NCBI GenBank assembly: GCA_036003365.1 | Contig: DASYSL010000086.1 | Coordinates: forward strand, 1,258-65,257 | Source: Candidatus Eiseniibacteriota bacterium | GTDB taxonomy: Bacteria > Eisenbacteria > RBG-16-71-46 > DASYSL01 | Length of the DNA: 64,000 nt | Direction: 5' to 3' | Part shown: in pieces, positions 10,402 through 63,217 of the stretch | Layout: each line of letters opens with the position of its first letter | Position numbering within the stretch: position 1 is the first letter of the stretch | The notes under the pieces: generated by a model | What the model was told of the DNA's origin: nothing | The model's input: only the letters and a program-made list of their open reading frames with translations | The model's database searches: none | Translations under genes and position numbers: made by a program

Positions 10402-10629
10402 GGAGCCTCCGGATTGCCAAGCGTGCGAGTCGGTTAGGGCGGGTTGCCGCAGCCGTTTCCAGCAGTCGCGCGCATCGTACATCCGGGATCCCCGAGTCTC
10501 AACCCAGCGCGCTGCGGGGGCGACGGCGCTCGCGCGGCCGAGATCCGGCGAGATACGGCCGAGATCCGGGCGAAATCCCGCCGAAGTTCCGAGCCTTGCA
10601 TGGCGTCGCACCCGGTCGCATCATGGGGT

Positions 10630-19848: not shown

Positions 19849-21597
19849 CTACAACAAAACGAGGCGTCTTCCGAGATGTACCCCCGGCGCTTCGAAGCGG
19901 ATGAAATAAACCCCGGCATGGGCGCGCACGCCGCCGCCGTCGGTGCCATCCCACGAGAACAGGCGCTCGGAGCCGGCGCGTAGGCTGCCCGCGAACAGCT
20001 CGCGCACCTGGCGGCCGCGCGCGTCGAACACCCCCAGGCTCGCCGGCCCGCCGGCAGCACCGGCGCGTGCCCAGAAGGCGATCGATCCCCCGCTCACCAC
20101 AGGCAGAGGCCCGACCATCACGAGCGCCGCCGCCCCGGACACGGTTTGCGCGAACACGGTGCTCGGCGTCCAGGCGAGTGCCGCCTCGGCGCGCGCGAGC
20201 CCATAGCCGAAATGCGTGTCGGCCGCTCCGAACTGACTCGCCGTCGCGCGCAGCGCCTGCAGCACCTCGAAGGGCGACCACTGCGGATGCGCTTCGAGGA
20301 GCATTGCCGCCACCCCGGCCACCGCCGGCGTCGAGAACGAAGTCCCGGTCGCCAGCGTGAGGTTCACGTCGGAGGCCGGTGAGGCCAGGGACGTGCTCAC
20401 GCCCATGGCGCACACGTCCGGCTTCACGCGGCCGTCGGCGCTCGGCCCGTACGACGAGAAGAACGCCACCCGCCCGGTCGAGTCGGTGGCGCCCACGGCG
20501 CACACCGTGTCGGCATCGGCGGGGGCGATCAGATAGCGCCATGGCGTCAGGCCCTCGTTGCCCTGCGCCGTGACCACGACGATGCCGCGCCGCGCGGCTT
20601 CGGCGGCGGCGCGCGTGACCACCGTGGTGCGTCCGTCCATGTCGCCATAGCTGTACGACGGAAACGGCGCGTCGAACGTCGTGTAGCCGAGCGACGAGGA
20701 GATGACGTCGGCGCCCAGGCTGTCGGCCCACTCGGCCGCCGCCTGCCACCAGTCCATCTCGACCGGCGTCTCGCTCGTCACCACCTCCACCTTGGCGAGC
20801 GCGAAGGTGGCGCGAAACGCCGTGCCCACGAGCACGCCGGGCTCGTACGCGCCCACCACCGAGAGCGTCTCGGTGCCGTGGTAATCCTGGCCCGCGTCGT
20901 CCTGGCCCGCCTCGTTCGCCACCACCGTGTCGCCGTGGACGAAGTCGCGGCGCGCCACGACGTGCAGCGAATCGAACACCTCGTGCGTCTCGCGGAAGCC
21001 CGTGTCGATCATGGTCACGAGGATGCCGGCGCCGGACAGCCCGCGCGCGTGCAGGCGATCGCTCTCGATCAAGGCGTTCTGCGCCGCCGAGGCGCCGTAG
21101 AACGCGGCATCCCCCGGCTCGGCGAACCTGGCGTCCGCCAACCGCGGCGCGGCCGGGGGCACGATTTCGGTCGTCGCGCGCTCGAGGTCGGAATCGACGC
21201 GCACCCGCTCCACCGGCTCGATCCGGCTCACGAACGGGAGCCCGGCGAGCTCGGCGAGGCGCTCGGGCGCGGCTCCGACGCTCGCCGCGTTGAGCCAGCG
21301 GCTCACGACTCGAACCTGGAACCCGCGCGCCATGAGCGCGCTCACGTAGCGCGGCTCGACGGGAAGATCGTTGGCGAAGGGCTCGGCCGCCCCGCGTCGC
21401 GCGCGGCGCTCGAGAGCCCGGGCCGAGACCGTGGCCCGCGCGGCGGCGCGGCACTGCGCGGCCGGCGCGTTCTCCAAGTCTCCGTGATCGGCGAAGCGCA
21501 CCCACACGACGTCGGCGCGCGCCGTGCCTGCGAGCGCGAGCAGCGCCCAGGCCAGCGCCCACGCCGGGACCCAGGCCAGCGCCCACGCGCGCTTCAA
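19849..21597 (-). CDS. S8 subtilisin-like serine protease with signal peptide and T9SS/Por-type C-terminal sorting domain. TTG start overlaps the asparaginase TGA.
   Basis: Asp/His/Ser triad motifs 'VTMIDTGF', 'HGTETLS', 'GTSFSTPAVAG'. C-terminal 'GVYFIRF...RLVLL'. The signal-peptide region contains a 24-bp tandem repeat coding AWALAW. Confidence 0.8.
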   Translation of the reverse strand: MKRAWALAWVPAWALAWALLALAGTARADVVWVRFADHGDLENAPAAQCRAAARATVSARALERRARRGAAEPFANDLPVEPRYVSALMARGFQVRVVSRWLNAASVGAAPERLAELAGLPFVSRIEPVERVRVDSDLERATTEIVPPAAPRLADARFAEPGDAAFYGASAAQNALIESDRLHARGLSGAGILVTMIDTGFRETHEVFDSLHVVARRDFVHGDTVVANEAGQDDAGQDYHGTETLSVVGAYEPGVLVGTAFRATFALAKVEVVTSETPVEMDWWQAAAEWADSLGADVISSSLGYTTFDAPFPSYSYGDMDGRTTVVTRAAAEAARRGIVVVTAQGNEGLTPWRYLIAPADADTVCAVGATDSTGRVAFFSSYGPSADGRVKPDVCAMGVSTSLASPASDVNLTLATGTSFSTPAVAGVAAMLLEAHPQWSPFEVLQALRATASQFGAADTHFGYGLARAEAALAWTPSTVFAQTVSGAAALVMVGPLPVVSGGSIAFWARAGAAGGPASLGVFDARGRQVRELFAGSLRAGSERLFSWDGTDGGGVRAHAGVYFIRFEAPGVHLGRRLVLL

Positions 21598-22640
21598 CGC
21601 GCGCGCACGGTCGCCGTGTCCGGCTCGGCCGCCTCCCGCTCGGCCCGCAAGAATCCCACGACGAGCCCGCGATGGTTCTTGATCGACGGCTGCGCCCAGC
21701 GTTCGAGCGCGGCGAGTGCCGAGTCGCTCAGGCGGCCGCTCTCGCGCATCCACGCGATCACCGACGGGCCCACGGCGCGCCGCGAGCCGTCGAGCACCTT
21801 GACCGCCACGCCTTCACCCGTCTCCGGGAATCCCAGACATTGCAGGCCCTCGGCGCCCGTCTTGGTCACCACGGCCCCGGCTCCTGCCGTCAGCACGTCG
21901 GTGCAGAAGCGCCCCTCGCCCGCCACCATACGGGGCTCGGCGATCATGGCCCGGCGCACGAGCGCGAGCGCGCGATCGCGCGCGTCCATGGCGTCGGCGC
22001 GGGCCACGGCGAAGCGCGAGAAGCCACGCGCCATGGCCGAGAGCGGCAGCGCCGGATTGGCGGCGCTGCAGCCGTCGACGCCGAGCGGCATGGCACGCGC
22101 GTCCACACCGCAAACCTCGGCGACCGCGGCCATGCAGGCGCGCTGCACCGGATGGTCGAAGGCCACGTAGTCCTCGACCGGCCAGCCCTCGCACACGGCG
22201 AGCGCCAGCATGCCGGCGTGCTTGCCCGAGCAGTTGTTGTAGATCGGCGAGGGCGCGAGCGCGCCCTGCCGCAGGCCGGCGTCGTGCTCGGGATCCTCGG
22301 GGTAGTGGAACCCGCACAAGAGATGCCGGTCCGAGAGACCGATGCGCTCGAGCATGCCGCGCACCACCGTGACGTGCTCGGCCGCGCCATTGTGCGAGGC
22401 CGACATGACCGCCAGCTCCCGCGCGCCGAACCCCAGCTTCTCGGCGTGGCCGCGCTCGACCAGTGGCAGCGCCTGGAAGGGCTTGCAGGCGGAGCGAAAG
22501 AAGGTGACGAAGTCGCCCTCCGGTCCCTCGTCCAGCCCCTGGGGACGCCACGTCACCACCACCGCCTCGTGCACCGCCTCGTCCTGCCCGGGCGCGCCGC
22601 GGCGCACGTGCACGCGATAGCGCGCGAGCCCGGCGCTCAA
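21594..22640 (-). CDS. L-asparaginase II family protein (PF06089-like). TTG start overlaps the aminotransferase TGA.
   Basis: 'FFRSACKPFQALPLV', 'NNCSGKHAGMLA' and 'KTGAEG' family motifs. The fusion ORF 21594..23897 in the track is split here. Confidence 0.7.
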   Translation of the reverse strand: MSAGLARYRVHVRRGAPGQDEAVHEAVVVTWRPQGLDEGPEGDFVTFFRSACKPFQALPLVERGHAEKLGFGARELAVMSASHNGAAEHVTVVRGMLERIGLSDRHLLCGFHYPEDPEHDAGLRQGALAPSPIYNNCSGKHAGMLALAVCEGWPVEDYVAFDHPVQRACMAAVAEVCGVDARAMPLGVDGCSAANPALPLSAMARGFSRFAVARADAMDARDRALALVRRAMIAEPRMVAGEGRFCTDVLTAGAGAVVTKTGAEGLQCLGFPETGEGVAVKVLDGSRRAVGPSVIAWMRESGRLSDSALAALERWAQPSIKNHRGLVVGFLRAEREAAEPDTATVRAR

Positions 22641-24061
22641 CCGACCCGCCGCACCGCACCGGCGGCTCGCTTCGGCCGGCGTCCGTTCTGCCGCGCTCGG
22701 CCCCGCCCGGCGCGCGATTCGACCGCGGTCACCGCATCCTCGAGCACTTCGAGGCCGACCTGTGCCTGGGCGCGGGTCAAGGTGAGCGGCGGCGAGATGC
22801 GAATGGCGGAGTTCCCCGCCCCCAGCGTCAAGAGTCCGCGCTCGAAGCAGGCTTGGATGATGGCGTCGCGCCGGTCGTGATCGCCGCGCGTCGTATCCGG
22901 CTCGACCACCTCGACCGCCAGCATGAGGCCCATGCCGTTCACCCAGCCGAGGTGCGGGTGACGCTTCACCATGGCCTCGAGCTCCTTCTTCATGAAGTCG
23001 CCGACCTGGCGCGCGTTGTCGAGCAGCTGCTCCTCGATGAGGTCGAGCGTGGCGAGAGCGGCCGCGCACGAGACCGGGTTGCCGCCGAACGTGTTGCCGT
23101 GCGAGCCCGGCGGCCACGACATGAGCTCCTTCGAGGCCACCGTGATGCCGAGCGGCATGCCCGAGGCGATGCCCTTGGCGATCGTCACCACGTCGGGCTT
23201 CACGTTCCAGTGCTCGATGGCGAACCACTTGCCGGTGCGCCCCATGCCCGACTGCACCTCGTCGGCCACGAACAGGATGCCGTACTTGTCGCACAGCGCG
23301 CGCAGGCGCTCCAGGTAGCCGGGCGGCGGCGTGACGTAACCGCCCTCGCCCTGGATGGGCTCGACGAACAGCGCCGCCACGTCCTCCGGCGGCGTGTGCT
23401 TGGCGAAGACGTAGTCCTCGATGAACGACACGCAGGCGTAGCCGCAATCGGGAAACTTGAGATTGAAGATGCAACGCTTGCAGTCGGCGAAAGGCACGTG
23501 CGTGGCTTGCGGCGTCTGCGGCGCGAAGCCGCGGCGCTGCACCGCCTTCGACGCCGTGAGCGTGAGCGAGCCCATAGTGCGGCCGTGAAACGCCCCATAA
23601 AACGCCATGAACAGCGGCCGGCGCGTCTGGTAGCGCGCCAGCTTCATGGCCGCCTCGACTGCTTCGGTGCCGGAGTTGGAGAAGAAGGCCTGCTTGGGCC
23701 CGGAGCCGGGCACGAGCTTGGTGATGCGCTCGCCGAGCCGCACCTCGAGGTCGTAGTAGAAGTCGGTTCCCGACATGTGGAGGAAGCGGCCCGCCTGGTC
23801 GCGGATCGCCTTGACCACACGCGGATGCGAGTGGCCGCTCGCCCCCACCGCGATGCCGGCCGTGAAGTCGAGGAAGCGGTTGCCGTCCACGTCCCACAGG
23901 AGGGCGCCGCGCCCGTGGCTCATGGCCAGCGGATAGGCCCGCGTGTAGGACGCCGAGATGGCGCGGCGGTCGCGCTCGACGATCGCGCGGGCGCGCGGCC
24001 CGGGCAGCTCCTTGGTGATCAGCTCGGGGCCGTGGGGACTCGGCCTCTGGGTCGTGGTCAC
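22637..24061 (-). CDS. Class III PLP-dependent aminotransferase (GabT / acetylornithine aminotransferase-like).
   Basis: 'FVADEVQSGMGRTGKWFA' and 'TIAKGIASGMPLG' (PLP-lysine region). Confidence 0.85.
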   Translation of the reverse strand: MTTTQRPSPHGPELITKELPGPRARAIVERDRRAISASYTRAYPLAMSHGRGALLWDVDGNRFLDFTAGIAVGASGHSHPRVVKAIRDQAGRFLHMSGTDFYYDLEVRLGERITKLVPGSGPKQAFFSNSGTEAVEAAMKLARYQTRRPLFMAFYGAFHGRTMGSLTLTASKAVQRRGFAPQTPQATHVPFADCKRCIFNLKFPDCGYACVSFIEDYVFAKHTPPEDVAALFVEPIQGEGGYVTPPPGYLERLRALCDKYGILFVADEVQSGMGRTGKWFAIEHWNVKPDVVTIAKGIASGMPLGITVASKELMSWPPGSHGNTFGGNPVSCAAALATLDLIEEQLLDNARQVGDFMKKELEAMVKRHPHLGWVNGMGLMLAVEVVEPDTTRGDHDRRDAIIQACFERGLLTLGAGNSAIRISPPLTLTRAQAQVGLEVLEDAVTAVESRAGRGRARQNGRRPKRAAGAVRRVG

Positions 24062-24195
24062 GCAGACCTCTGGGTCGGGGTCAAAGGGCGCCTCCGGATG
24101 AGGGGATTGCGCTCATTCTCGCCCGAAGCGTCGCCCAAAACAAGCCGAGGCCCTCCGGGAAGCGGAGGGCCTCGACGACGCGCAACGCCCAGGGG

Positions 24196-25209
24196 TCAGC
24201 GGACGACGACGAAGTGCGCTTTGTACTCGAATCCTTCGGGCGTGGTCACGCGATACATGTAGATGCCCCCGCTCACATCCTGGGCGCGCCCGTTCTTGAG
24301 ATCCCAGATGGCGGTGCCGCTCACCACCGTGTCCTTGCTCAGCTCGCGCACGAGGTCGCCTGAGACCGTGTAGATCTGCACCTTGGCCTGCGCCGGCAGA
24401 TTGCGGAACTCGAGCTTGTGCGTGCCCGGCGAGTCCCAGGCTTCGGTGCCGCGGTACGGATTGGGCACCACGATCACGTGCTCGAGATCCGACGAGGGCC
24501 CGCCCGTGACGATCACCGGCTCGGTCATCAGGTTCAGCGCCAGGTTGTTGATGTTGCAGCAGGTCTCGGGGTGCGACGGGTCCGAGCAACCCGCGAGGTC
24601 GGGCACGAACTCGTTCTCGAAGCCGCCCTGGATGAGATTCGGATCGGCCCCGTACACGATGGCGTAGTAGGCGGCAAAGCCGTCCGGCGGCGGCGGCGGC
24701 GGGACGAGCGCCCACACCGAGTCGATCTGGGCACAGCGCTTGGGATTCAAGGGATCGATGCGGCGGCAGATCGGCACGCGGTGGATGTCGCCGGCCGAGT
24801 CCGGATCCACGAACGTGGCGCGCGCCACGTTGTCCGGGAAGTGCCACAACAAGGTGTCGTGGTACACGTAGCGCCGCAAGAGCTCCATCTTGCAGGTGTC
24901 GGCGCTCACGTACACGCGATAGATGTTGTAGCCGCCGAACCCGCCCACCGACGAATCCGCGATCAGCCTCTGCTCGAGCGCCAGATCACGGTCCCAGACC
25001 AGCGTCACCTTGCGGCTCACCGTGCTGTCCTGTCCCTGCGAGCCAATCACGCCCGGAAAAGCGCGGAAATGGATGCGCGGGAACGTGTCCGGCTTGGCCA
25101 CGCTCGCGCAACCGGCGGCCGCCGGATTGGGACAGTCGGCGCGGGTTCCGCCCGCCAGTCCCGCCATCCCGCTCGCCGCGAGGCACGCGGCGAGCAGGAG
25201 GCGGATCAT
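24196..25209 (-). CDS. Cys-rich secreted protein with T9SS/Por-type C-terminal sorting domain, 337 aa.
   Basis: Signal peptide MIRLLLAACLAASGMAGLAG. About 10 Cys residues and a PPPPPP stretch. C-terminal 'VQIYTVSGDLVREL...GGIYMYRV...HFVVVR'. Confidence 0.6.
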   Translation of the reverse strand: MIRLLLAACLAASGMAGLAGGTRADCPNPAAAGCASVAKPDTFPRIHFRAFPGVIGSQGQDSTVSRKVTLVWDRDLALEQRLIADSSVGGFGGYNIYRVYVSADTCKMELLRRYVYHDTLLWHFPDNVARATFVDPDSAGDIHRVPICRRIDPLNPKRCAQIDSVWALVPPPPPPDGFAAYYAIVYGADPNLIQGGFENEFVPDLAGCSDPSHPETCCNINNLALNLMTEPVIVTGGPSSDLEHVIVVPNPYRGTEAWDSPGTHKLEFRNLPAQAKVQIYTVSGDLVRELSKDTVVSGTAIWDLKNGRAQDVSGGIYMYRVTTPEGFEYKAHFVVVR

Positions 25210-25244
25210 CCATGGATCAGCATGCGATTCGTTCGAGCGTGCGG

Positions 25245-27779
25245 TCACTCGATCGGTCTCCAGTCCTTGGCATCGAGCTGGACGGCGCCCGGCCCGGTCT
25301 GCGTCAGCGGGTTGGTGTTCTTCGTGAAGCCGAACTTCTCGAGCACCTTGGTGGTCGCGATCTGCACCTGAGTGCGGTCGAGGTACCAGAGCGGGATGCC
25401 GGTCCAGTCGAGCTCCCATGCCGCCCCTGTGTGGTCGACGACGTGGAACCACACCGGCTTGCCGTCCGGCCAGTCGTTCGCGGCGCGGATTCTCTGCGTC
25501 AGGCAGCGGCCGAGGAAGAGCGTGTCGAACTCGGCCTCGGACGGGGAGATGCTATTGGCCAGCGAAAGATACGGGCAAGCGATGCTCGACGGCGGCTTGG
25601 TCGGCCAAAAGTTGAATTCCGTCTGCATGGGGATGATCGACAGCCCATCCCAGGTCGGCAGGTTCCTGACCGAGGCCGGGCCGACGCGCGGATCGCAGGT
25701 CGCGGTGCGCTGGCCCGTCCATCCATCGGGTGGCCAGGGCGCGTCCGTGCACATGAACTGCGGCAGATAGGGAATGAAATCGCCGTAGTTGTCGTTCACG
25801 GACTGAATGTCTCCCGCCCCACCCTGGTCGGCGATGTCGATCCCCGAATGGATCTTCAGGTAGTCGTACATGAAGTTTCCCGGCCACAGGATGTGCTGGC
25901 GGTCCGGCTTCGTACCCTCCCCGCGGTACGGGAAGGGCGCCGGGCCGGTGCCGGCGAAGCGCGTGACGTAGCCGGCGGCGAGCGTCTGCAGGATGCCGCT
26001 GCCGAACAGGAACGCCTTGCCGCCCTGCGACAGGTAGACGGCCAGCGTGTTGAGGTGGCCGGCGTCGGTGATGTAGTGCAGGGCGCTCTCGGGGCTCGAT
26101 CCGAACTTGCTCGTGCCGATGCGGCCCGCGTCCTTGTCGCCCGTGTACCAGACGACCGCTCGGTACTTGGTCATGATGCTCAGCGGCAAGCCGTTGGTGG
26201 GCGTGAAGCGGTAGTCGAGCGTGTCGCTCACGATATTGCCGCTGGCGTCGGAGAAGAAGCCGGAGAAGATGCCCGGTTTCGATGTTCCTCCGATTCCGAC
26301 CCAGGGAACTCCGCCCTTGGCGTAGAACAGCGTATCGAGCGTCGACTCGATCGGATAGTTCGAGTATGCCGCGTGGTCGGCGCGGTCGGTGTCGCCGCGG
26401 AAGTCGTCGAAGAACAGGATGTTCTTGGCGATGCTCGGATCCTTGAACGCTGCTTTCACCACTTCGAGCTGGATGACCATGATCGAGGTGGCGCCGGTGT
26501 TGTCACGCGCCTCGAGGTAGAAGCGGTGGAAGATGGTCGTGTCGGGATGCCCGTTCACGGTCGTGATCTGGTAGAACGGCCCGAGGATGGTGGACGTCTC
26601 GGTGGTCGACCAGCTCGACCAGCGGTAGGTCTGCGAATCGTTGTCGCGCGGCGTCTCGTTGAAGATGTCGCCGTCGATGGGGTCGAGCACCCAGCGGAAG
26701 CCGTTCAGGACGGTGCCCTGCGAGAGGGCGGCGACGTCCCAGTTCATGGGGATCGGCTGTCCCTCGGGAACTTCCAGCGGCACGACGCGCGACTCGCTCA
26801 AGTCGAAGCTCCCGCGCGCACCCTGGCTGCGGATGAAGAACGAGTTGAAGACCACGATGGCCGGCGCCTGCAGCTCGGTGCTGGGCTTGAAGCGCAGCAC
26901 GTTGTTGTTGAGGTTGAAGCGCGGCTCGTAGGCGCCCGCGATGTCGAACGCGACGACGGCGAAGTACCACACCTGACCGGGGGTCACGCCTTCGTACTGC
27001 TTGAACGTGGTGTCGGCGGACACCGAATCCCAGTCGGCGAAATTGGGCGCATCATGGCTGAAGAAATTCTGGATGTCCTGCTGGGTGGGCGTGATGCCGC
27101 CGATTTGCTGCACCTGCTGGATCGTCGACTGGCTCACCAGCTTGAACTTGTACAAGCGGGGCGGGCCGCCGACGCCTTCGCCTTCACGGTCCGGGTCGGT
27201 GCCGTGCCACTCGATGCGCACGCTGGGAGCCGTGGTGGCCGTGCTTCCCGCTCCGGGGTTGGGCGATGTGATCTGGGTGACCGGGGCCACGGTGCGCGAG
27301 CTGAAGCTCACGCTCGTGGGCGGCGAGAAGGCGCCTTCGTTGTCGACCGCCTTGATGGTGAACTCGTGGTAGTCCTTGCTCGTCACCTGGGTGGCCGGGA
27401 AGCTCCCCGAAGTCACGTTCGTGCTGCCCGGACTCGGCTCGCTCGACTTGAAGAAGATCGTCGTCTCGTTGCGGTCGATCCGCGTCCACACGGTGTCGCC
27501 CAGCGCCGGCGGGTCCACGGCGTAGATGAAATAATCGACGCGGCCGTCGGAGTCCGAGCCAGTCCACTGCAGGCGCACCTTGAAGTAGACGGAGTCGCCC
27601 GGCTGCGGGCGCGCCGTCAGCTGGACCTGCGGACGATAGTTTTGGACCCCGATCCCCCCGCCTCCCTTGGACGAACAGCCCCACGCCGCGAGCGCCAGAC
27701 AAGCGGCGAACAGCAGCCGCTGCGCTCCACCCCATGCATTGTTCATGCGGCTCACATCCTTTCGCCGTCCGGCCTTCAT
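25245..27779 (-). CDS. Large lipoprotein (844 aa), uncharacterised, paralogous to the upstream gene. Its ATGA overlaps the upstream stop.
   Basis: Lipobox 'LALAAWGC'. Repeated 'W.GSD.DG.V..F.YAV' and 'YKFKLV' beta-sandwich-like modules. Confidence 0.7.
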   Translation of the reverse strand: MKAGRRKDVSRMNNAWGGAQRLLFAACLALAAWGCSSKGGGGIGVQNYRPQVQLTARPQPGDSVYFKVRLQWTGSDSDGRVDYFIYAVDPPALGDTVWTRIDRNETTIFFKSSEPSPGSTNVTSGSFPATQVTSKDYHEFTIKAVDNEGAFSPPTSVSFSSRTVAPVTQITSPNPGAGSTATTAPSVRIEWHGTDPDREGEGVGGPPRLYKFKLVSQSTIQQVQQIGGITPTQQDIQNFFSHDAPNFADWDSVSADTTFKQYEGVTPGQVWYFAVVAFDIAGAYEPRFNLNNNVLRFKPSTELQAPAIVVFNSFFIRSQGARGSFDLSESRVVPLEVPEGQPIPMNWDVAALSQGTVLNGFRWVLDPIDGDIFNETPRDNDSQTYRWSSWSTTETSTILGPFYQITTVNGHPDTTIFHRFYLEARDNTGATSIMVIQLEVVKAAFKDPSIAKNILFFDDFRGDTDRADHAAYSNYPIESTLDTLFYAKGGVPWVGIGGTSKPGIFSGFFSDASGNIVSDTLDYRFTPTNGLPLSIMTKYRAVVWYTGDKDAGRIGTSKFGSSPESALHYITDAGHLNTLAVYLSQGGKAFLFGSGILQTLAAGYVTRFAGTGPAPFPYRGEGTKPDRQHILWPGNFMYDYLKIHSGIDIADQGGAGDIQSVNDNYGDFIPYLPQFMCTDAPWPPDGWTGQRTATCDPRVGPASVRNLPTWDGLSIIPMQTEFNFWPTKPPSSIACPYLSLANSISPSEAEFDTLFLGRCLTQRIRAANDWPDGKPVWFHVVDHTGAAWELDWTGIPLWYLDRTQVQIATTKVLEKFGFTKNTNPLTQTGPGAVQLDAKDWRPIE

Positions 27780-29722
27780 GGCGTCACCGTCTGCCAGTAG
27801 AAGGGGATCTTCGCGCGCACGATCCGGCGGTCGACGAGGCTGACCGCGTCGGGATCGGGGAAGTCGGACAGCTCGAACTCGAAATAGTGGCGTCCCGGAG
27901 GGAAGACGGATGGATCAGTCGGAATGTTGATGGGAAGCGTTTCGCCCGAGTGCATGAGCTGGCCCTGCGACGAGCTCCAGCCTTCGTCGTCGGCAAGGTT
28001 ATCGCCGTCGGTGCGGAAACGGACGCGGACCAGGAACGGGGCGGGACCGGAGCTGGTCGAATCGGAGTCGTACATGAACAGGCGCGCGACGAAGTTGGGC
28101 GCCGTGATCAGGGTATCGGGCGTCGGCGCGAAGCCCACGATCTGCGGCAGGAAGTATGGGTTGTAGTTCGAGAACCAGTTCAGCACGAGGCGACGCAGCA
28201 CCGTGTCGGCCGGAGCCAGCGAGCCGTTGTTGTAGTTGTAGATGTACTCGCGCGGGTTGCGGATGCGGCGGTCGCGGCCGAGATTGCCGTCCACCGAGCG
28301 CACCTGGGCGAACGATTTTCCGGTGAACCCGGCGCCCGGGAAGTACGGCACGTTGAAGTACAGCTCCGGCCGATAGCTGGGTGAGAGCGGATCGAAGTTG
28401 GGATAGATCTCGGTGAACGACGGCGTCTGCGGCACACCGGTCGTGAGCTCGGTGATGATGCGGTATTCGACGCCGATCGGCGAGCCGTTGGCCGGGCCGG
28501 GAATCGCCACCACGCCCTTGTCGGTGGGCGGCGGATTGCTGGTGAGCACCGCGTAGGGCGAATCCTTGTCGCGGCCACCGGCGAAGAAGTAAAGACCCTC
28601 GGCATTGCGCGCCACGGTGTCCGAGTCGACGCGGATGTACCAGTGCCACTCGAATCCGATGCGAACCTTCTCGAGGAAGGTCGCCATCGGCTTGCGGTCG
28701 GCGGGCAGCGTGTTGAAGCGCCCCGGGCCGAGCCACTTGTCGAGCACCGCGGGCGCCGCGCCCGTCGACGGATCGCCGAGCACGTAGAGGCCGCGGCCGT
28801 CACGCAAGGAGGCGGCGCGCACATCGGGATCGGTGGTGTCCGGGCCCGCCCACCAGGTGTCGGGATCGAAGTTCACGACGAAGCGGCGCAGCGAGTCGGG
28901 GAACGTGGTGCCGCCCGCCTCGTCGACCGAGCGCACGCGGAAGACGTTGAGGCCTACGGGAGGCGGCGCCGGATTCGGGCCGGTGCCCGTGCCATACGAC
29001 ACCTGCTTGGTGAGCGAGTCGACGGACTGGTAGTCGGTCTCCACGAGCTTGTAGCGGTAGCCCGCGATCTGGCTCTGCCAATCCTTGTCGAATCCGTGCC
29101 ACCCGAAGTAGACCGCGGAGCCGACCGGAATGGTGTCGCGCGGCAACGACGTCGCCTGCGTGGGATCCTGCGGATCGGTGAGATTGATCGCGAACGGTTG
29201 CGAGACCACGCCGCCGCCCGGCGCCGGCACGAAGATGTTGCCCTCGGCGCGCGCGAAGTCCCACACGATGCCGGGCAGGTTGCGATCGCGCGCCACGAAG
29301 CGCGTGAACGCCGGCGTGGGATCCGCCTTGCCCTCGTTGTCGACGGCGAACACGTAGAGCCCGTGCTCACGGTCGGTGCCGAGACCCTCGTGGATGTTGA
29401 AGATGAACACCGAGTCGGTCTTGGTCGTGAAATGCCACTGGCTCGGCTTGGGCCCAGGCAACGGATTGCCGGACAGCGTCTCGGTCACGGCGAAGTAGAA
29501 GCCGGCCACGGCGCCATCCACGTCGGAGCCCGACCAGTGCACGTGATAGCGGTACGGCGCACGGTTCAAGGGCTTGCCACCGATCGAATCGAGAGGAGCC
29601 GCGGTGAGATAGGTCTCAGGGGCGCGGTTTCGATCCGTATTCGGGGCGACCGTCTTCCGGCAGGAGATTTGGGCCAGGGCGACAAGCAAAACGACAAAAA
29701 TTCCCCACCACTTCAAACGCAT
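27776..29722 (-). CDS. Large lipoprotein (648 aa), uncharacterised paralog of the 844-aa lipoprotein.
   Basis: Signal peptide with 'LAQISC' lipobox-like cysteine. 'RYHVHWSGSDVDGAVAGFYFAV', 'YRYKLVETD' and 'VFRVRSVDEAGG' modules shared with the downstream gene. Confidence 0.7.
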   Translation of the reverse strand: MRLKWWGIFVVLLVALAQISCRKTVAPNTDRNRAPETYLTAAPLDSIGGKPLNRAPYRYHVHWSGSDVDGAVAGFYFAVTETLSGNPLPGPKPSQWHFTTKTDSVFIFNIHEGLGTDREHGLYVFAVDNEGKADPTPAFTRFVARDRNLPGIVWDFARAEGNIFVPAPGGGVVSQPFAINLTDPQDPTQATSLPRDTIPVGSAVYFGWHGFDKDWQSQIAGYRYKLVETDYQSVDSLTKQVSYGTGTGPNPAPPPVGLNVFRVRSVDEAGGTTFPDSLRRFVVNFDPDTWWAGPDTTDPDVRAASLRDGRGLYVLGDPSTGAAPAVLDKWLGPGRFNTLPADRKPMATFLEKVRIGFEWHWYIRVDSDTVARNAEGLYFFAGGRDKDSPYAVLTSNPPPTDKGVVAIPGPANGSPIGVEYRIITELTTGVPQTPSFTEIYPNFDPLSPSYRPELYFNVPYFPGAGFTGKSFAQVRSVDGNLGRDRRIRNPREYIYNYNNGSLAPADTVLRRLVLNWFSNYNPYFLPQIVGFAPTPDTLITAPNFVARLFMYDSDSTSSGPAPFLVRVRFRTDGDNLADDEGWSSSQGQLMHSGETLPINIPTDPSVFPPGRHYFEFELSDFPDPDAVSLVDRRIVRAKIPFYWQTVTP

Positions 29723-29837
29723 CCAGCGTCCTCCAGAAACGCCCTGAATTGTGCCCGGTGTGACAAGAATCTAACGATTGGGGGCGTGGTCCGTCAACCA
29801 CCCGATCGCGGCCAAGAACCTTCCCGCCAGCGCGCCG

Positions 29838-30080
29838 GGGGCCTGCCCTCGCCCTAGAACATGGGCGGGCGTCGGGCAGGCCCCCGCGTGGCGGTGGGCT
29901 CTACGCACAAACCTACTGGTTCACTTCGCGTCCCTGCCGTCAATTCCCTCAGTTTCCCCGATTTGGACTCCCCAGGCTTCAGATGGCGATGCCCCACCTT
30001 GCTGGCTTCCTGGTGCGGGGTCGCGGGCTTTCCCGAAGGGCCTCGTGTGTCCGGCCCGAGGGAAAGCCCGGGACTTCGCA
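29838..30080. promoter_or_regulatory. Structured intergenic region with two long inverted repeats. It lies between the end of the 1420-aa gene and the start of the lipoprotein operon.
   Basis: First inverted repeat is GGGGGCCTGCCC...GGGCAGGCCCCC at 29838-29886. Second is CGGGCTTTCCC-(GGGCC..GGCCC)-GGGAAAGCCCG at 30034-30080. Confidence 0.4.
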
Positions 30081-30085
30081 CCACC

Positions 30086-30121
30086 AAAAAAAAGAAGGCG
30101 GGGGGTCTCCCCCCCGCCCTC
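30086..30121 (-). terminator. Rho-independent terminator for the 1420-aa secreted-protein gene.
   Basis: Minus strand reads GGCGGGGGGGAGACCCCCCGCC followed by TTCTTTTTTTT, 25 nt downstream of the stop. Confidence 0.75.
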
Positions 30122-30146
30122 TGCGCTTTCGCGCCCGACTCAGACG

Positions 30147-33100
30147 TTAGTTGCCCGCCTGACCCAGGAGCACCATGCGCTGGCTGTTGTTCTGGAACTG
30201 CACGCCAGGAGCCGACAGGCGATAGAAGTACACGCCCGAGGCAGCCTTCGTGCCGCTCGAAGTGACGCCGTCCCAGCGATAGAGGTTGTCCGCGCCCACA
30301 TGACCCTCGACGGTCGCCTCATGCACGAGACGGCCCGCGACGTTGTAGAAGCGGATCGTGACCTTCGCCGGCTGAGCCAGCGAGAACCGCACCGACGCCG
30401 CACCCGCAACCGAGGGGTTGGGGAACGCGCCGCGCACGAAGTTCAGCGCCAGACCAGGAACGTCGCCCACGCCGATGACCGGGTTCACACGCGCGCACTG
30501 GTTGAACGCCGTCAACGCGTCGTTCATCCACTCGCGGCGACCGTAGTCGTTCGCGGCGATGTTCGACACCGCGGCAGTCGTCGGGTCCGAAGGACCACCC
30601 CAACCGCGCAGGTTGTCGAACGAGAAGCCGTCGAGCAGCGTGGCATAGAAGCGACCCGCGCCCGCGTCCAGACGACGATACACCGACGAATAGAACGGCC
30701 CAGCAGAGCCGGCACCACGGTCCGAGACGTCTTCGTAACGGGCCGCGCGCTCAGCACCGGGGACGCCACCATCGCGATCGATGATGTCGAGGATGCCCTG
30801 GCACGAGTTGAAGATGCCGTAACGGCGATTGGAGTGGAACGGATCGGCAGCACCCGGATCAGCATCCAGCGGCTTGAAGATGGCCACCGTCGACTGGTTC
30901 CCGGTGAAGTCGAAGTAGTTGTCCTGCACGAACAGGCCGCCCATGCGCGACAAGAGGATGCCGCACGAGGTTCCGGGCGAGGTGGCGAGATCCTGAGTCA
31001 GACCGTCACCGTTGCCCCAGAAGGCCTTCTCGTTCCCCGACGCCGCGCGGTCGAGCCACTGGTTGATCATACCCGCGTCGTCCGCCTGCTCCTGACCCGT
31101 GCCCGAGCCGTCATGCATGGCACCGGCCGACTCGTCGAGGTCCACGGAGTCCCAGATGATCGTGTTGTAGTAGCGGTCAAGCATGTCGACCGTCGGACCC
31201 TGCTTGCTCTGCCGGTCCGAAACGCCCGGATCGACACCGCCACCAGGGATGCGGCAACCAATACGGTCACCCTCTCCCGACTCGGAAGCGCGAATGTCGA
31301 ACTTGTCGTACGCCAGGCCCATCATGCCCAGGTTCGGCGACACGAAGCCGGCAGGATTGTTGACGTCGTTCGACGTGGCCACGGCCTTCCAGCCGCGGTC
31401 GGCGCCGTTGTCCGTGCCATAACCGAGCGAGTCGAGCGCGCCCACAACCGCGGGCTCGCCGCCGCGCCGGTCACCGGCATCGACGTAGAGCAAGCAAGCC
31501 AGACCGTTGCCGCCGAACCGCGTGTCCTTCCACATGTCGGGGAAGACATCGAAGCTGTCGAAACGGAGCTGGTCGAAGTAGCCGCCCATTCCGGTCTGCA
31601 GCGATACCGTCGTCGTATCCGGCGACATGTTCAGTAGCGCGTGCGTCCCGTCGGAAGCAGCCGAGCGACGGACGAAGTACTCGATGTGCGTACCGGGCGT
31701 GAACAGACCGTCCGGCAGAATCTTCGTGCCCTCTTTCGTCGTCGTACCCGCCGGATAACCATCACCGCTCGGCGGATAGGTCGTCCCGAGGGCCAAGCAT
31801 GAGGCCGGGTCGCAGCAGAGGTTCGACTGGTTGACCGGGCCGCTGAAATCGATCACGTAGCAGTAGCTGACCGTCTTGGCGAGCACGCCCGAATTGGCGC
31901 CGCCGTGCGGATCGGTCTCCTCGTAGGTGCCCTGCCAGTTGTCGGGCGCCGTCTGGCCGATGCTCTTGAACGCGACCGGATACAGCTGGGTCGCCTGAGC
32001 CGAGTCCATACGCGCCGAGTTCCACGTGTTGGGATCCCACTTGGTGCCGCTGTGGTGAGCGCCCGCACCCGCAGGGGTGCCTACATCACCGTCGTTGGCC
32101 ATGTACTGGCCCCAGAACGAACCGTCTCCAGGAACAGCCAGGTTGCCAGCAACGTTGCCCAGCGCCACGACCTTCAACAGCGCGCTGTTCACGTTGCCCT
32201 TGGTGGAGTAGTTGCCCGGACCCGGCTTGATACGGAAGACCAGGTCCATGCGCGCATCGGCGCCCGCCGAGGTGTAGAGGAGCGAGTCACCAGAGATGAC
32301 GCCCTCACCACCGCCCGTCTTGGCGTTGTTCAGACCGTCCTTCACCAGAGCGGTGACGGTGTCGAACCCAGCCGAGCCCGGAGCGATGCTCTCGTTGAAC
32401 GGGAACGTGTCGCCCAAGAGGAACCAGAAGAAGGTGCTCAGAGACGGCTTCGCAGCGCCGGCTCCGGTGATGAAGCCCATGCGGATGTTGTCCCAGTACG
32501 TGCCGTCGGTCTGACCGCACGCCGTCGCCGAGAAGCGGGCGCAGCGCGTCTGGTTCTCGACCGCAACCTTGACCGAGTCCGCGTGAGCGATGTTGATGAA
32601 GGCGCCGAGGTCGCCAGGATCCGAGTCGTACGTGACGCAGACCGGCGTGCCGTAGTCATTGATGGCGCCCAGTGTGTTGACCGAGGACCACTCGACGTTC
32701 GTCGGTCCCTCGACCTGCTTCTCACCCGAGTTCGCCAGTGCCGGGTCGTACTTCACTTGGATCGCGTACCAGAAGAACACGCCCGAGAGACCGGCATCGT
32801 CGAAGCCAGAGTAGAAGTCGAACTGGAGGTTCGTGTTGCTGGCATCCGTCCGCAGCGTCGGGGGAGTCCCCTGCGCCGTGGCACGGCCCGAGAGATCGTG
32901 CAGGACGATCGTCGGGCTGATGGACCAGTTCTGCGACTCGAGGTGGAACGTGTGCGCCGGGTTGGCGCCCTCGGGGTCGTGGTTGGACTGGACCAGGATG
33001 TTCTCGCTCAGGTTACAGAACAGCTTGCCGCAAGGATCGGCGAACGGCAGGTCGTTCTGGTTGTGAATGTGGCCGTAGTACGCGGGCGAGCGGCCCGACG

Positions 33101-34409
33101 TGATCCACGACGACGACGGCGAGTTCTCGACGAACGAGGCACCCGACCGCGTGAAGCGCGGCTTGATGTCGCTGGCCGACTCGAAGGTCGTCGTGCTGCC
33201 GTACACGCTCACGTTGTCGACCACGACTGCTCCGGTCGTGGAGTTCCACGCCGAGGCCGTCGGGGTGCTCGCGGGACGAGCGTCATCGAAGAAACGGTTC
33301 GTCTTGACGCGGAGGACGACGCGAACCGAGCTCCAGCCCGTGCCAGCCGGAATCGCCAGGGGGCCCGTATTGGCCGTCGGTGCGACGCCCGTCACGGAGA
33401 AGAGGAGCTTCGGCGCAGCGGCGCCGCCGAGACTGAAATCGAGCGCATCCGAAAGATAGCGGTGAGCCTTGTCATAGACTCCCGACTCCTTCGGGGCGCC
33501 GATCCATACTTCGAACGAGTCCACCGGCTCTGCACCCGAGTTGGCGAGGCAGACCAGGTTGGCGCTCGAGAACGGATCGGGGGTGAACCAGCCACCACCG
33601 TTGCCCGGAGAAGTGCCCGGATCCGTCGTCCCGCCGTTGTTCAGCTCGGGACGGTAATCCATCGAGATCGTTCCGGCGCCGGTGTAGGTGAAGTCCCTGT
33701 ACAGGAGCTGGTCCCACTGCGACGCGTAACCAGGCCAAGCGCTACGGATGTTCGACGAAGTCGCGCGGAAATCCACGTGCTCCTCGTCCGCCGTGTACTT
33801 GTTGTTGGTGTACGAATCGGTGGGAGCATTGGCATCACCGGACATGCGCAGACCGCACCAAGCCGATCCGTTGCCCGTGATGTTGCTGGCGAATCCAGGA
33901 GCCACGCGGCCCGTGTCAGGCACCGACGTGAGGTTGTCCTGGTGCCACACGCCGGCCAGACCGTGCATGCGCGTCGCGCGGCCGTTGGCGAAGCGATTGA
34001 CCGTGAGGTTGTGGTCGCCGTTGTTGATGTCGTTGCCGAAATCGTAGTACCAGAACGGCCGGCTTACGGTCGTCAGGTACTTCGTGGTGCCGTCCGACGC
34101 CTGCGGGGCCTGGACGAACTCCCAGAACTGGGAGGAGTCCGTGCCCGTGATGTCGCCGGCATAGTAGGGCGTATCGAAATCCCACTTGCCGCCCACACCG
34201 ACCTTGTTGGGATCGGTGCTCGACGCCAAGAAGCCGTACCAAACGGTGGCCGCGGCTGCGGTCGAGAATCCCGACCGATAGCGCGGGGCGTTCAGTGCCG
34301 GCTTCTTCACGGCAACGTCCTGGTCGGTGGTCTGCGCAAGGGCAAAGCCCTGGCCCAGAACCATCGTTCCCAGCACGAGGCCGAGAAGCAGAGCAAGGAA
34401 ACGACGCAT
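30147..34409 (-). CDS. Giant secreted protein (1420 aa) with T9SS/Por-type C-terminal sorting domain. No other domains recognised.
   Basis: Signal peptide MRRFLALLLGLVLGTMVLGQGFALAQ. C-terminal 'FPNPS...VRFSLAQPAKVTIRFYNVAGRLVHE...GVYFYRL...RMVLL'. ATG at 34409 with GGAGG 8 nt upstream. Confidence 0.8.
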   Translation of the reverse strand: MRRFLALLLGLVLGTMVLGQGFALAQTTDQDVAVKKPALNAPRYRSGFSTAAAATVWYGFLASSTDPNKVGVGGKWDFDTPYYAGDITGTDSSQFWEFVQAPQASDGTTKYLTTVSRPFWYYDFGNDINNGDHNLTVNRFANGRATRMHGLAGVWHQDNLTSVPDTGRVAPGFASNITGNGSAWCGLRMSGDANAPTDSYTNNKYTADEEHVDFRATSSNIRSAWPGYASQWDQLLYRDFTYTGAGTISMDYRPELNNGGTTDPGTSPGNGGGWFTPDPFSSANLVCLANSGAEPVDSFEVWIGAPKESGVYDKAHRYLSDALDFSLGGAAAPKLLFSVTGVAPTANTGPLAIPAGTGWSSVRVVLRVKTNRFFDDARPASTPTASAWNSTTGAVVVDNVSVYGSTTTFESASDIKPRFTRSGASFVENSPSSSWITSGRSPAYYGHIHNQNDLPFADPCGKLFCNLSENILVQSNHDPEGANPAHTFHLESQNWSISPTIVLHDLSGRATAQGTPPTLRTDASNTNLQFDFYSGFDDAGLSGVFFWYAIQVKYDPALANSGEKQVEGPTNVEWSSVNTLGAINDYGTPVCVTYDSDPGDLGAFINIAHADSVKVAVENQTRCARFSATACGQTDGTYWDNIRMGFITGAGAAKPSLSTFFWFLLGDTFPFNESIAPGSAGFDTVTALVKDGLNNAKTGGGEGVISGDSLLYTSAGADARMDLVFRIKPGPGNYSTKGNVNSALLKVVALGNVAGNLAVPGDGSFWGQYMANDGDVGTPAGAGAHHSGTKWDPNTWNSARMDSAQATQLYPVAFKSIGQTAPDNWQGTYEETDPHGGANSGVLAKTVSYCYVIDFSGPVNQSNLCCDPASCLALGTTYPPSGDGYPAGTTTKEGTKILPDGLFTPGTHIEYFVRRSAASDGTHALLNMSPDTTTVSLQTGMGGYFDQLRFDSFDVFPDMWKDTRFGGNGLACLLYVDAGDRRGGEPAVVGALDSLGYGTDNGADRGWKAVATSNDVNNPAGFVSPNLGMMGLAYDKFDIRASESGEGDRIGCRIPGGGVDPGVSDRQSKQGPTVDMLDRYYNTIIWDSVDLDESAGAMHDGSGTGQEQADDAGMINQWLDRAASGNEKAFWGNGDGLTQDLATSPGTSCGILLSRMGGLFVQDNYFDFTGNQSTVAIFKPLDADPGAADPFHSNRRYGIFNSCQGILDIIDRDGGVPGAERAARYEDVSDRGAGSAGPFYSSVYRRLDAGAGRFYATLLDGFSFDNLRGWGGPSDPTTAAVSNIAANDYGRREWMNDALTAFNQCARVNPVIGVGDVPGLALNFVRGAFPNPSVAGAASVRFSLAQPAKVTIRFYNVAGRLVHEATVEGHVGADNLYRWDGVTSSGTKAASGVYFYRLSAPGVQFQNNSQRMVLLGQAGN

Positions 34410-34539
34410 GTTGTCAGCCTCCAACGAGACGGCTCGAGTCCGCCTCTGAGAGTAGAGAGAACGACTCCCGGGAGGAGTATCCAGAAGAACAATCCGACGC
34501 GCCGGCTTCACCCGCCCGAGAACCTTGTCCGCTCGCAAT

Positions 34540-62956: not shown

Positions 62957-63217
62957 GAAGGCGGCCTCCACGGGAGGAAAGACTTGGGGCCGGGGGATGG
63001 CCAAGCGCCTCGGGTCGGCGCCGAATCAGTCTAGGACCGCTCGAAGAATGGAGGCAAGTGCTTCCTAGACCGCGCGCTCCAACGCCGGCAGGGCGAAGCC
63101 CATCTCCTCGAGGTTGGCCACCGGCTCGAGGTCGGAGCCGGCGCACGAGTCCAGGATTCGTTGGCGCCCCTTTGATAGGCTTCATCGGTCGCGCAGCTCG
63201 GGGAAGGACGTCTGTCC

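What the first reader, a model, noticed from the sequence alone, without database searches (positions are those of the whole stretch)
24196..29722. Operon of two paralogous giant lipoproteins plus a Cys-rich T9SS-sorted protein: candidate uncharacterised cell-surface system
Three minus-strand genes are translationally coupled (ATGA overlap at 27776-27779, 35-nt gap at 25210-25244). They encode a 648-aa and an 844-aa lipoprotein sharing unusual repeated modules (W-x-GSD-x-DG...F-YAV, Y-[KR]-[FY]-KLV, VD-[NE]-[EA]-G). A third gene encodes a 337-aa Cys-rich protein with a PPPPPP stretch and a Por/T9SS-type C-terminal sorting domain. I recognise none of the three as a characterised family. The arrangement suggests a membrane-anchored pair that docks or processes a T9SS-exported partner. 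It lies next to a 1420-aa secreted giant.
Basis: partly seen in the sequence, partly recalled or inferred. Interest (0 to 1): 0.65.

Follow-up and report, generated by a model that had tools for sequence, protein, structure and literature searches.

The report
Conserved Eisenbacteria cell-envelope gene module
Two lipoproteins and a small secreted protein with a sorting tail form an operon that sits next to a giant secreted protein in the same order across the uncultured phylum Eisenbacteria; they look like structural cell-envelope parts of unknown function and have no characterised relative.

Summary
Three minus-strand genes form one operon with its own promoter and terminator: A (648 aa), B (844 aa) and C (337 aa). 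A and B are lipoproteins; the lipobox Cys is present in 67/67 and 59/59 homologues. They share only an N-terminal fn3/Y_Y_Y-like two-domain module (hhalign 97.9%). No Pfam, NCBIfam, PADLOC or PDB sequence match explains A or B.

AlphaFold models are confident (pLDDT 87-89). A is a string of beta-sandwich domains. B is beta-sandwiches plus a ThuA/GATase1-like (GIFT-like) head without a catalytic triad. C is an fn3-like, 4-Cys module plus a T9SS type-A-like C-terminal domain.

The genome is Candidatus Eisenbacteria, not Gemmatimonadota. The order D(giant)-A-B-C recurs across the phylum: B follows A in 47/47 loci, C follows B in 40/40, and D precedes A in 32/35. D is transcribed separately.

B has extra paralogues. 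About a dozen sit beside larger proteins that end in the same module as C.

Best reading: lipoprotein partners that dock or hold CTD-tagged envelope proteins. This is inferred, not shown. It is a new family set built from known folds, of moderate interest.

The parts
30147..34409 (-). Gene D: 1420-aa secreted protein with an SPI-type signal peptide and a type-A CTD. It is monocistronic and the conserved upstream neighbour of the operon.
   Evidence: ORF. TIGR04183 31 bits (cut-off 23) and FlgD_ig 30.5 bits. D precedes A in 32/35 loci. No other domain was detected in any of 26 orthologues.
30150..30425 (-). C-terminal sorting-type domain of D (aa 1329-1420).
   Evidence: FlgD_ig matches 26/26 orthologues. 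The profile hits the FlgD Ig domain (E 4e-7) and the PorU CTD (E 1e-3) in PDB.
30093..30122 (-). Intrinsic terminator directly after D. It is conserved in position in all loci.
   Evidence: 13-bp stem followed by a T-run. A GC hairpin plus T-run aligns in 29 loci.
29768..29797 (-). Promoter of the A-B-C operon: TTGACG, 18 nt, TAGATT.
   Evidence: The cTTGACg ... TAG block is conserved in 29 loci.
29723..29767 (-). Conserved 5' UTR of A containing the GGAGG Shine-Dalgarno sequence.
   Evidence: Alignment of D-A intergenic regions.
27776..29722 (-). Gene A: 648-aa lipoprotein (LAQIS|C21) made of roughly six beta-sandwich (fn3/Ig/MG-like) domains.
29000..29632 (-). N-terminal two-domain module of A (aa 31-241), homologous to B aa 46-226. 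It is an fn3/Y_Y_Y-like module carrying the WxGSDxDG and YRYKLV motifs.
25245..27779 (-). Gene B: 844-aa lipoprotein (AAWG|C35). The probable true start is Met12 at 27746.
   Evidence: AF2 model pLDDT 86.9, pTM 0.72.
26460..27644 (-). Four beta-sandwich (fn3-like) domains of B (aa 46-440).
25275..26447 (-). C-terminal alpha/beta head of B (aa 445-835). The fold is ThuA/class-I-GATase-like (GIFT-like), with no catalytic triad and a conserved acidic crevice.
24196..25209 (-). Gene C: 337-aa secreted protein. NCBI's 350-aa model of the identical protein implies an alternative start, a GTG at 25248.
24478..25092 (-). fn3-like module of C (GGYxIYR) with inserted loops and 4 conserved Cys (C148, C159, C208, C217).
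   Evidence: Alignment of 65 homologues. It is homologous to the C-terminal part of the 800-900 aa CTD proteins found next to B paralogues (hhalign 99.9%, E 2e-31).
24199..24477 (-). C-terminal sorting-type domain of C (aa 245-337), with the motifs VVPNPYRG and SGIYMYRV.
24144..24176 (-). Intrinsic terminator that closes the A-B-C operon.
   Evidence: 14-bp stem (11 GC pairs) followed by TTGTTTT.

Best explanation
D-A-B-C is a phylum-specific, non-enzymatic cell-envelope module.

Export routes (read from the sequences). All four products leave the cytoplasm. A and B are lipid-anchored through an SPII lipobox. D and C use a Sec signal peptide and carry a T9SS type-A-like C-terminal domain.

Proposed mechanism (inferred). 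A and B act as membrane-tethered stalks of fn3-like domains. B's ThuA/GIFT-like head uses its conserved but triad-less crevice to bind a partner. That partner is either the fn3-like+CTD module of its neighbour C (and perhaps D) or a glycan attached to it. Binding would dock or retain the CTD-tagged proteins at the envelope. B-type lipoproteins would then be cargo-specific partners. This is functionally comparable to the PorP/SprF-like proteins that hold type-B CTD cargo in Bacteroidota.

Shown: gene structure, export signals, predicted folds, absence of catalytic motifs, and synteny.
Inferred: T9SS use, any A/B-C/D contact, and the side of the membrane the lipoproteins face.
For: - Operon anatomy: own promoter, tight or overlapping gene junctions, and terminators on both sides.
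- The lipobox Cys is invariant in the A and B families.
- C and D carry CTDs. The same tail sits on unrelated secreted proteins in the window, an S8 peptidase and an FG-GAP protein, as expected for a sorting tag.
- Confident models show only beta-sandwich arrays plus a ThuA/GATase1/GIFT-like domain.
- There is no conserved nucleophile in that domain. The invariant residues lie at the C-terminal edge of the sheet.
- Gene order is conserved among proteins only 30-40% identical: A-B in 47/47 loci, B-C in 40/40, D-A in 32/35.
- About a dozen of roughly 25-30 stand-alone B paralogues lie beside 800-900 aa proteins whose last ~270 aa are homologous to C.
- Precedent for cognate anchor partners of CTD cargo: PMC9143113. 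GIFT domains are proposed to be sugar-binding or docking modules: PMC7226087.
Against: - No interaction was tested or predicted.
- I could not check whether Eisenbacteria encode T9SS core components.
- The CTDs match FlgD Ig-like domains as well as they match T9SS CTDs.
- The window's C falls 2 bits below the TIGR04183 cut-off.
- The residues after the lipid Cys (CRK in A) do not resemble the acidic Bacteroidota surface-export signal, so A and B may face the periplasm.
- D is missing in 3 loci and A in one.
- Part of the B family sits next to other genes, such as an Asp-protease-PDZ protein, instead of a CTD protein.
- The whole region, including housekeeping genes, is syntenic across the phylum. 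Gene order alone is therefore weak evidence of functional linkage.
Confidence: 0.45

Rival explanations
1. Periplasmic accessory or adaptor. A and B are periplasm-facing lipoproteins whose fn3 arrays span the periplasm. They would chaperone or hand over the neighbouring CTD proteins to the outer-membrane translocon, rather than anchor them outside.
For: The basic residues after the lipid Cys (CRK conserved in A) do not look like a surface-export signal (own knowledge of the Bacteroidota LES). Arrays of 5-6 beta-sandwich domains are long enough to bridge a periplasm. B pairs with CTD proteins.
Against: There is no similarity to any known T9SS component. Sorting rules in this phylum are unknown. 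No topology data exist.
Confidence: 0.2
2. Surface coat. D is an abundant S-layer-like or major surface protein delivered by its CTD. A, B and C are its anchoring or assembly factors.
For: D is monocistronic, has a strong terminator, and in most genomes has a long, extremely conserved, structured 5' leader. S-layer genes of other bacteria have such leaders (own knowledge). T. forsythia S-layer proteins TfsA and TfsB are T9SS cargo of similar size (abstract of PMC8869499). The module sits in the core genome.
Against: There are no expression or imaging data. D is absent from 3 genomes that keep A-B. The window's own leader is diverged and folds no better than shuffled sequence. D's fold was not predicted.
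Confidence: 0.15
3. Enzymatic or nutrient-acquisition complex. D and/or B's ThuA-like domain are hydrolases. A would be a SusE/F-like binding lipoprotein working with the neighbouring secreted peptidases.
Against: No catalytic triad, HExxH or other enzyme motif is present. No enzyme family hit occurs in 60, 71, 65 and 26 family members. No SusC/SusD-type genes are nearby. The flanking synteny also includes housekeeping genes.
Confidence: 0.12
4. No joint function. These are four unrelated secreted proteins kept adjacent only because the whole region is a frozen core-genome block.
For: Order is conserved from the S41 peptidase to PPDK, including LarC, Dus and an ABC ATPase.
Against: A-B-C share one promoter and terminator with junctions of 35 nt or less, or overlapping. 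A and B share a domain module. The B-plus-C-like pairing recurs at other loci.
Confidence: 0.08

Closest known systems
T9SS type-A CTD cargo proteins (TIGR04183/PF18962; e.g. P. gingivalis RgpB, T. forsythia TfsA/TfsB)
   Same: D and C have an N-terminal signal peptide and a C-terminal ~90-aa beta-sandwich tail matching the CTD models. The same tail sits on unrelated secreted proteins in this genome.
   Different: The passenger parts of D and C match nothing known. The organism is outside Bacteroidota and its T9SS machinery was not verified. C scores just under the curated cut-off.
CTDs of PorZ (5m11) and PorU (6za2), components of the T9SS attachment complex
   Same: These are the best sequence matches for C's tail (NF052228 in 65/65 members, best E 1e-12; PDB profile E 1e-3 and 8e-3).
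   Different: Only the last ~90 residues match. There are no PorZ beta-propellers and no PorU C25 peptidase domain, and scores are far below the equivalog cut-offs (36 vs 260 bits).
PorP/SprF-like partners of type-B CTD cargo (PorP-PG1035, SprF-SprB; PMC9143113)
   Same: The logic is the same: an envelope protein that binds and anchors a CTD cargo after secretion. That such partners are encoded beside their cargo, and come in many paralogous pairs per genome, is my own recollection, not taken from the paper.
   Different: PorP/SprF are outer-membrane beta-barrels and their cargo carries a type-B CTD. Here the partner is a lipoprotein of fn3 domains plus a ThuA-like head, and the tail is type-A-like. 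There is no sequence relationship.
ThuA-like / class I GATase-like proteins (1t0b, 3rht, 2gk3, 4jqs) and GIFT domains (GldG, IFT52, OST48/WBP1)
   Different: No sequence-level membership was found in any of 60 family members. There is no Cys-His-Glu triad. The domain carries large insertions (about 390 aa against about 240) and is fused to a lipoprotein fn3 stalk.
SusE/SusF-type surface lipoproteins and bacterial alpha-2-macroglobulin (ECAM)
   Same: Both are lipoproteins built from tandem beta-sandwich domains. Foldseek aligns A to MG-domain arrays (E 5e-9 to 2e-8).
   Different: TM-scores are 0.1-0.2. There is no thioester domain or motif (the window's A has a single Cys, the lipid Cys) and no SusC/SusD neighbours.

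Membership tests
T9SS type-A CTD cargo (TIGR04183) | C-terminal domain scores above the curated cut-off of the Por_Secre_tail model | tested here: met
   D scores 31.0 bits against a cut-off of 23. FlgD_ig/CHU_C/Por_Secre_tail match 26, 16 and 8 of 26 orthologues respectively.
T9SS type-A CTD cargo (TIGR04183) | The same criterion applied to protein C | tested here: inconclusive
   The window's C scores 20.9 bits, below the cut-off of 23. In the family, TIGR04183 matches 53/65 members at E<=0.01, the PorZ tail 65/65 and the PorU tail 62/65. NCBI names some homologues 'T9SS type A sorting domain-containing protein'.
T9SS type-A CTD cargo (TIGR04183) | N-terminal Sec signal peptide | tested here: met
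   Read from the sequence: D begins MRRFLALLLGLVLGTMVLGQGFALA|QT and C begins MIRLLLAACLAASGMAGLAGG. No dedicated predictor was available.
T9SS type-A CTD cargo (TIGR04183) | The genome encodes the T9SS machinery (SprA/Sov, PorV, PorU, GldK/L/M/N) | not testable with these tools
   Only 64 kb of the genome plus 20-kb flanks of relatives were available, and none of the scanned genes is a T9SS component. No paper links Eisenbacteria and T9SS.
Bacterial lipoproteins (SPII substrates) | Hydrophobic signal peptide ending in a lipobox with an invariant Cys | tested here: met
   Cys is present in 67/67 A homologues and 59/59 B homologues, mostly with G/S/A at -1.
ThuA-like / class I glutamine amidotransferase-like | Flavodoxin-like alpha/beta fold | tested here: met
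ThuA-like / class I glutamine amidotransferase-like | Sequence match to the family models (ThuA, GATase1_like, DUF4159, ABC_transp_aux) | tested here: not met
   None of these families matches any of the 60 B-family members at E<=0.01. The PDB profile search returns only fn3.
ThuA-like / class I glutamine amidotransferase-like | Catalytic Cys (nucleophile elbow) with His/Glu | tested here: not met
   The elbow reads G593-x-G595, with x varying among D/E/S/G/N. No Cys or His is invariant in the domain.
PorP/SprF-type cargo anchor | Outer-membrane beta-barrel of the PorP/SprF family paired with a type-B CTD (TIGR04131) cargo | tested here: not met
   A and B are soluble-domain lipoproteins. TIGR04131 matches only 1/65 C homologues, weakly.
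SusE/SusF-like PUL lipoproteins | Encoded next to a SusC/SusD pair | tested here: not met
   The neighbours are LarC, an ABC ATPase, an aminotransferase, and S8 and M16 peptidases.
Anti-phage defence systems (PADLOC) | Match to any defence protein model | tested here: not met
   No hits for A, B, C or D.

The most novel reading that the evidence does not exclude
B-type lipoproteins would be a new class of cargo-specific partners for CTD-tagged proteins. Each paralogue would recognise the fn3-like+CTD module of its neighbour through the ThuA/GIFT-like head. In that case D-A-B-C would be the core surface-coat (S-layer-like) assembly of Eisenbacteria, and D synthesis would be gated by a previously undescribed SD-sequestering leader RNA.
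Probability: 0.15. Interest if true: 0.65.

Novelty: new variant of a known kind. Interest (0 to 1): 0.4.

Why it matters
Eisenbacteria are common in soils and sediments but are uncultured, and nothing is known about their envelope. This module is present once per genome in a core-genome block. Its B component belongs to a large family with no annotation: 513 clusters at 50% identity with E<=1e-30.

If B-type lipoproteins are dedicated partners of CTD-tagged proteins, the idea of cognate cargo anchors would extend in two ways. So far it is known only for beta-barrel PorP/SprF proteins and type-B CTDs in Bacteroidota. Here it would apply to type-A-like tails and to another phylum. It would also give a function to a ThuA/GIFT-like domain in an envelope setting.

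If they are not such partners, the families still deserve a domain-of-unknown-function entry.

Tried and rejected
- Sequence libraries. Pfam, NCBIfam, PADLOC and PDB sequence searches with single proteins and with family profiles found only fn3 (weak) and the CTDs.
- afdb50.
- D versus B. I asked whether D's C-terminal third has the same ThuA-like domain as B. The motifs appear in the same order, but hhalign gives only 5-21% probability (E 7e-3 to 1e-3). This is inconclusive.
- D versus the 800-900 aa CTD proteins. The similarity is driven by the CTD only.
- D N-terminus and C N-terminus versus A and B: nothing.
- Alpha-2-macroglobulin reading of A. Rejected: TM-score 0.1-0.2 and no thioester features.
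- Classical GATase or hydrolase reading of B. Rejected: no conserved nucleophile.
- Rfam on the D leader and on window 23900-35200: no credible hit.
- Literature searches linking Eisenbacteria to T9SS: none found.
- NCBI taxonomy does not place the phylum in the FCB group. That placement rests on my own knowledge of GTDB and the published trees.
Full report
**1. What is in the window**

Four minus-strand genes lie between 24196 and 34409:
- D, 30147-34409, 1420 aa from the Met that begins the signal peptide.
- A, 27776-29722, 648 aa.
- B, 25245-27779, 844 aa.
- C, 24196-25209, 337 aa.

Third-position GC is 0.81-0.90, as in the other real genes of this 65-74% GC window.

D ends in a strong intrinsic terminator at 30122-30093.

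The start codons need two caveats:
- The ATGA overlap of A and B exists. However, 34 of 60 B homologues, including the closest ones, start at the residue aligned with Met12. That Met lies downstream of an AAGGA. A 29-nt A-B spacer is therefore at least as likely as the overlap.
- For C, NCBI's model of the 100% identical protein P0181 is 350 aa, 13 residues longer than the ATG-started ORF. In the sequence that start is a GTG at 25248 that overlaps B's stop.

**2. Source organism**

C is identical to a protein of a Candidatus Eisenbacteria MAG (locus tag VGR66_05480, 71-kb contig). Every named homologue of A, B and C comes from Eisenbacteria/Eiseniibacteriota. The scan of one genome per GTDB species returned 80 loci, almost all from Eisenbacteria MAGs. 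A few carry other labels: Alphaproteobacteria, Udaeobacter, Saccharimonadaceae, Limnocylindria, Methylomirabilota and Verrucomicrobiia. These contigs hold the same gene order and are most simply explained as mis-binned contigs.

**3. The proteins**

*Lipoprotein status.* A and B are lipoproteins. A hydrophobic signal peptide ends in a Cys present in 67/67 A homologues and 59/59 B homologues, mostly preceded by G, S or A.

*Database searches.* No Pfam, NCBIfam, PADLOC or PDB sequence match exists for the window proteins. Scanning each family member separately gives only fn3: 24/60 for B and 1/71 for A.

*Structure models.* AlphaFold2 with family alignments gave confident models: B at pLDDT 86.9 and pTM 0.72, and A at pLDDT 89.4 and pTM 0.76.
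- B has four beta-sandwich domains (aa ~46-440) and an alpha/beta domain of about 390 residues.
- GIFT domains have been proposed to bind sugars or serve as docking platforms (PMC7226087).

*Catalytic residues in B.* The catalytic triad is absent. The nucleophile-elbow position is D/E/S/G/N, and no Cys or His is invariant. The invariant residues are D459, P476, D482, G489, G503, Y539, G587, G593, G595, D752 and T753. Several of them (D459, P476/D482, G593/G595) lie at the C-terminal edge of the sheet in the predicted secondary structure. That is the usual ligand site of this fold.

*Protein C.* C has a signal peptide and an fn3-like module (GGYxIYR) with long inserted loops and four conserved Cys. 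It ends in a C-terminal beta-sandwich tail with the VVPNPYRG and SGIYMYRV motifs.
- The window protein scores 2 bits under the TIGR04183 cut-off.
- In the family, the PorZ-tail model matches 65/65 members, the PorU-tail model 62/65, and TIGR04183 53/65.
- The family profile finds the PorZ and PorU CTDs in PDB.
- The Pro run and four of the eight Cys are lineage-specific.

*Protein D.* D passes TIGR04183. Apart from the tail, none of its 26 orthologues matches anything.

*The tail as a sorting tag.* The same kind of tail ends an S8 peptidase (19849-21753) and an FG-GAP protein (60545-63004) in this window. This is how a sorting tag behaves.

**4. Conservation**

I ran tblastn of A-D against the 83 loci and clustered all coding-like ORFs. 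The results:
- B directly follows A in 47/47 loci that have a true A.
- C follows B in 40/40 loci with at least 2.5 kb of downstream sequence.
- D precedes A in 32/35 loci with enough upstream sequence. It is absent in L023, L040 and L044.
- L077 has D followed directly by B, without A.
- There is one such cluster per assembly.
- Protein identities to the window are 30-40% for most loci.

The terminator after D and the promoter plus 5' UTR before A are conserved in position and sequence.

The cluster lies in a longer syntenic block: S41 peptidase, Dus, LarC, ABC ATPase, [D-A-B-C], aminotransferase or asparaginase-like gene, S8 peptidase with CTD, M16, M16, PPDK. It is therefore a core-genome feature. 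For the same reason, adjacency beyond the operon is weak evidence of functional linkage.

**5. The B family is larger than the cluster**

An exhaustive profile search found 513 representatives (50%-identity clusters) at E<=1e-30 and 1317 at E<=1e-10. Genomes carry one to three extra B paralogues.

About a dozen of these sit next to, or divergent from, an 800-900 aa secreted protein. That protein's last ~270 residues are homologous to C, covering the fn3-like module plus the tail (hhalign 99.9%, E 2e-31). C is therefore the minimal member of that family. The pairing of a B-type lipoprotein with a protein ending in this module recurs at independent loci.

Another B subfamily lies after an Asp-protease-PDZ protein. 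The pairing is therefore frequent but not universal.

**6. Interpretation**

*Shown:*
- an operon of two lipoproteins and one tail-bearing protein, next to a separately transcribed giant tail-bearing protein;
- all four products exported;
- folds that are structural (fn3 arrays) plus one triad-less ThuA/GIFT-like head with a conserved crevice;
- deep conservation of order;
- recurrent B/C-like pairing.

*Inferred:* A and B are membrane-tethered stalks. B's head binds its neighbour's fn3-like+CTD module, or a glycan on it. This would dock or retain the CTD-tagged proteins at the envelope.

The nearest functional precedent is the anchoring of type-B CTD cargo by cognate PorP/SprF-like proteins (PMC9143113). 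Membership in that family is excluded, because those partners are beta-barrels and their cargo has type-B tails.

I put this reading at about 0.45. The rivals are:
- a periplasm-facing adaptor role, since the CRK after A's lipid Cys does not look like a surface-export signal;
- an S-layer-like coat with D as the main subunit;
- an enzymatic or nutrient-acquisition complex;
- mere frozen synteny.

The T9SS step is itself unverified. I could not search these genomes for SprA, PorV or GldKLMN. No paper links the phylum to T9SS. The tails match FlgD Ig-like domains as well as they match T9SS CTDs.

**7. Side finding: a conserved leader upstream of D**

In 19 genomes the D proteins average 47% identity (minimum 37%). 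Yet the 80 nt before the D start codon are 92% identical at the nucleotide level. A 24-mer from this stretch is exact in all 19 and occurs nowhere else in the 83 loci.

RNAalifold predicts a three-way junction in which ACCUC pairs with the GGAGGU Shine-Dalgarno sequence. It also predicts an upstream hairpin with compensatory changes: 10 pairs in total have double changes. A representative folds somewhat better than shuffles (z -1.9). Rfam has no match.

The window's own leader has diverged and shows no significant fold (z 0.1). The element is therefore a property of the family rather than clearly of this window. It suggests that D translation is gated, which fits a costly and abundant product.

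**8. Verdict**

The docking idea is plausible but untested.

These are new protein families built from known folds, in a known kind of arrangement: exported cargo with a sorting tail plus accessory envelope proteins. They are restricted to an uncultured phylum. Interest is moderate at 0.4. It would rise if the B/C-like pairing proved to be a specific recognition system, or if D proved to be the phylum's surface coat.

Noticed in passing
L014-L081, ~270 nt upstream of each D orthologue (e.g. L063:1151-1426); window counterpart 34410-34700 (minus strand): A strongly conserved non-coding leader lies upstream of D. Its last 80 nt are 92% identical across 19 genomes whose D proteins are only 47% identical. 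A 24-mer from it is exact in all 19 and unique to this position. The predicted fold is an SD-sequestering three-way junction plus an upstream hairpin with covariation. It is not in Rfam. The window's version has diverged and shows no significant fold.
   Followed up: partly
window 29723-29797 (minus strand) and the D-A spacers of 29 loci: The promoter (cTTGACg, 17-18 nt, TAGnnT) and a GC-rich 5' UTR (GACTGGGCGT.GCTGGGGGGCG) before A are conserved. The D-A spacer is long (164-546 nt) and otherwise variable in every genome.
   Followed up: partly
window 7531-41854: Gene order is conserved across the phylum around the cluster: S41 peptidase, Dus, LarC, double ABC ATPase, [D-A-B-C], aminotransferase or asparaginase-like gene, S8 peptidase with CTD, two M16 peptidases. 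In relatives this is followed by pyruvate phosphate dikinase; in the window PPDK lies further on (7531-10611).
   Followed up: partly
window 19849-21753 and 60545-63004 (minus strand): Two further secreted proteins end in the same FlgD_ig/CTD-type tail: an S8 subtilase and an FG-GAP repeat protein.
   Followed up: no
L018, L027, L067, L069 and others (e.g. L067:8022-9938): A third B-paralogue subfamily always follows a secreted Asp-protease (retropepsin-like) plus PDZ protein. It often lies near a DsbD-like gene, rather than beside a CTD protein.
   Followed up: no
Alignment A3 (A family), C-terminal ~40 residues; window 27776-27900: Most A homologues end in a Cys cluster (ELCDCxxCE...GRCV). 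The window's A lacks it; its only Cys is the lipid-anchor Cys.
   Followed up: no
L023, L040, L044; L077: Three genomes keep A-B(-C) but have no D between LarC and A. One genome (L077) has D followed directly by B, without A.
   Followed up: no
L004, L022, L026, L032, L034, L056, L079: Contigs carrying the Eisenbacteria-type cluster are deposited in MAGs labelled Alphaproteobacteria, Limnocylindria, Udaeobacter, Verrucomicrobiia, Saccharimonadaceae and Methylomirabilota. This is probably a binning error.
   Followed up: no
window 54359-57019 and 57019-59943 (minus strand): Two adjacent paralogous sensor proteins combine HisKA-HATPase, GAF and HD (HD_5) domains.
   Followed up: no
window 475-2676 (minus strand): A 733-aa ORF has a weak GATase1_like (PF07090) match (E 1.6e-4, below the cut-off). 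This is the same fold class as B's head domain. I did not examine any relationship to B.
   Followed up: no
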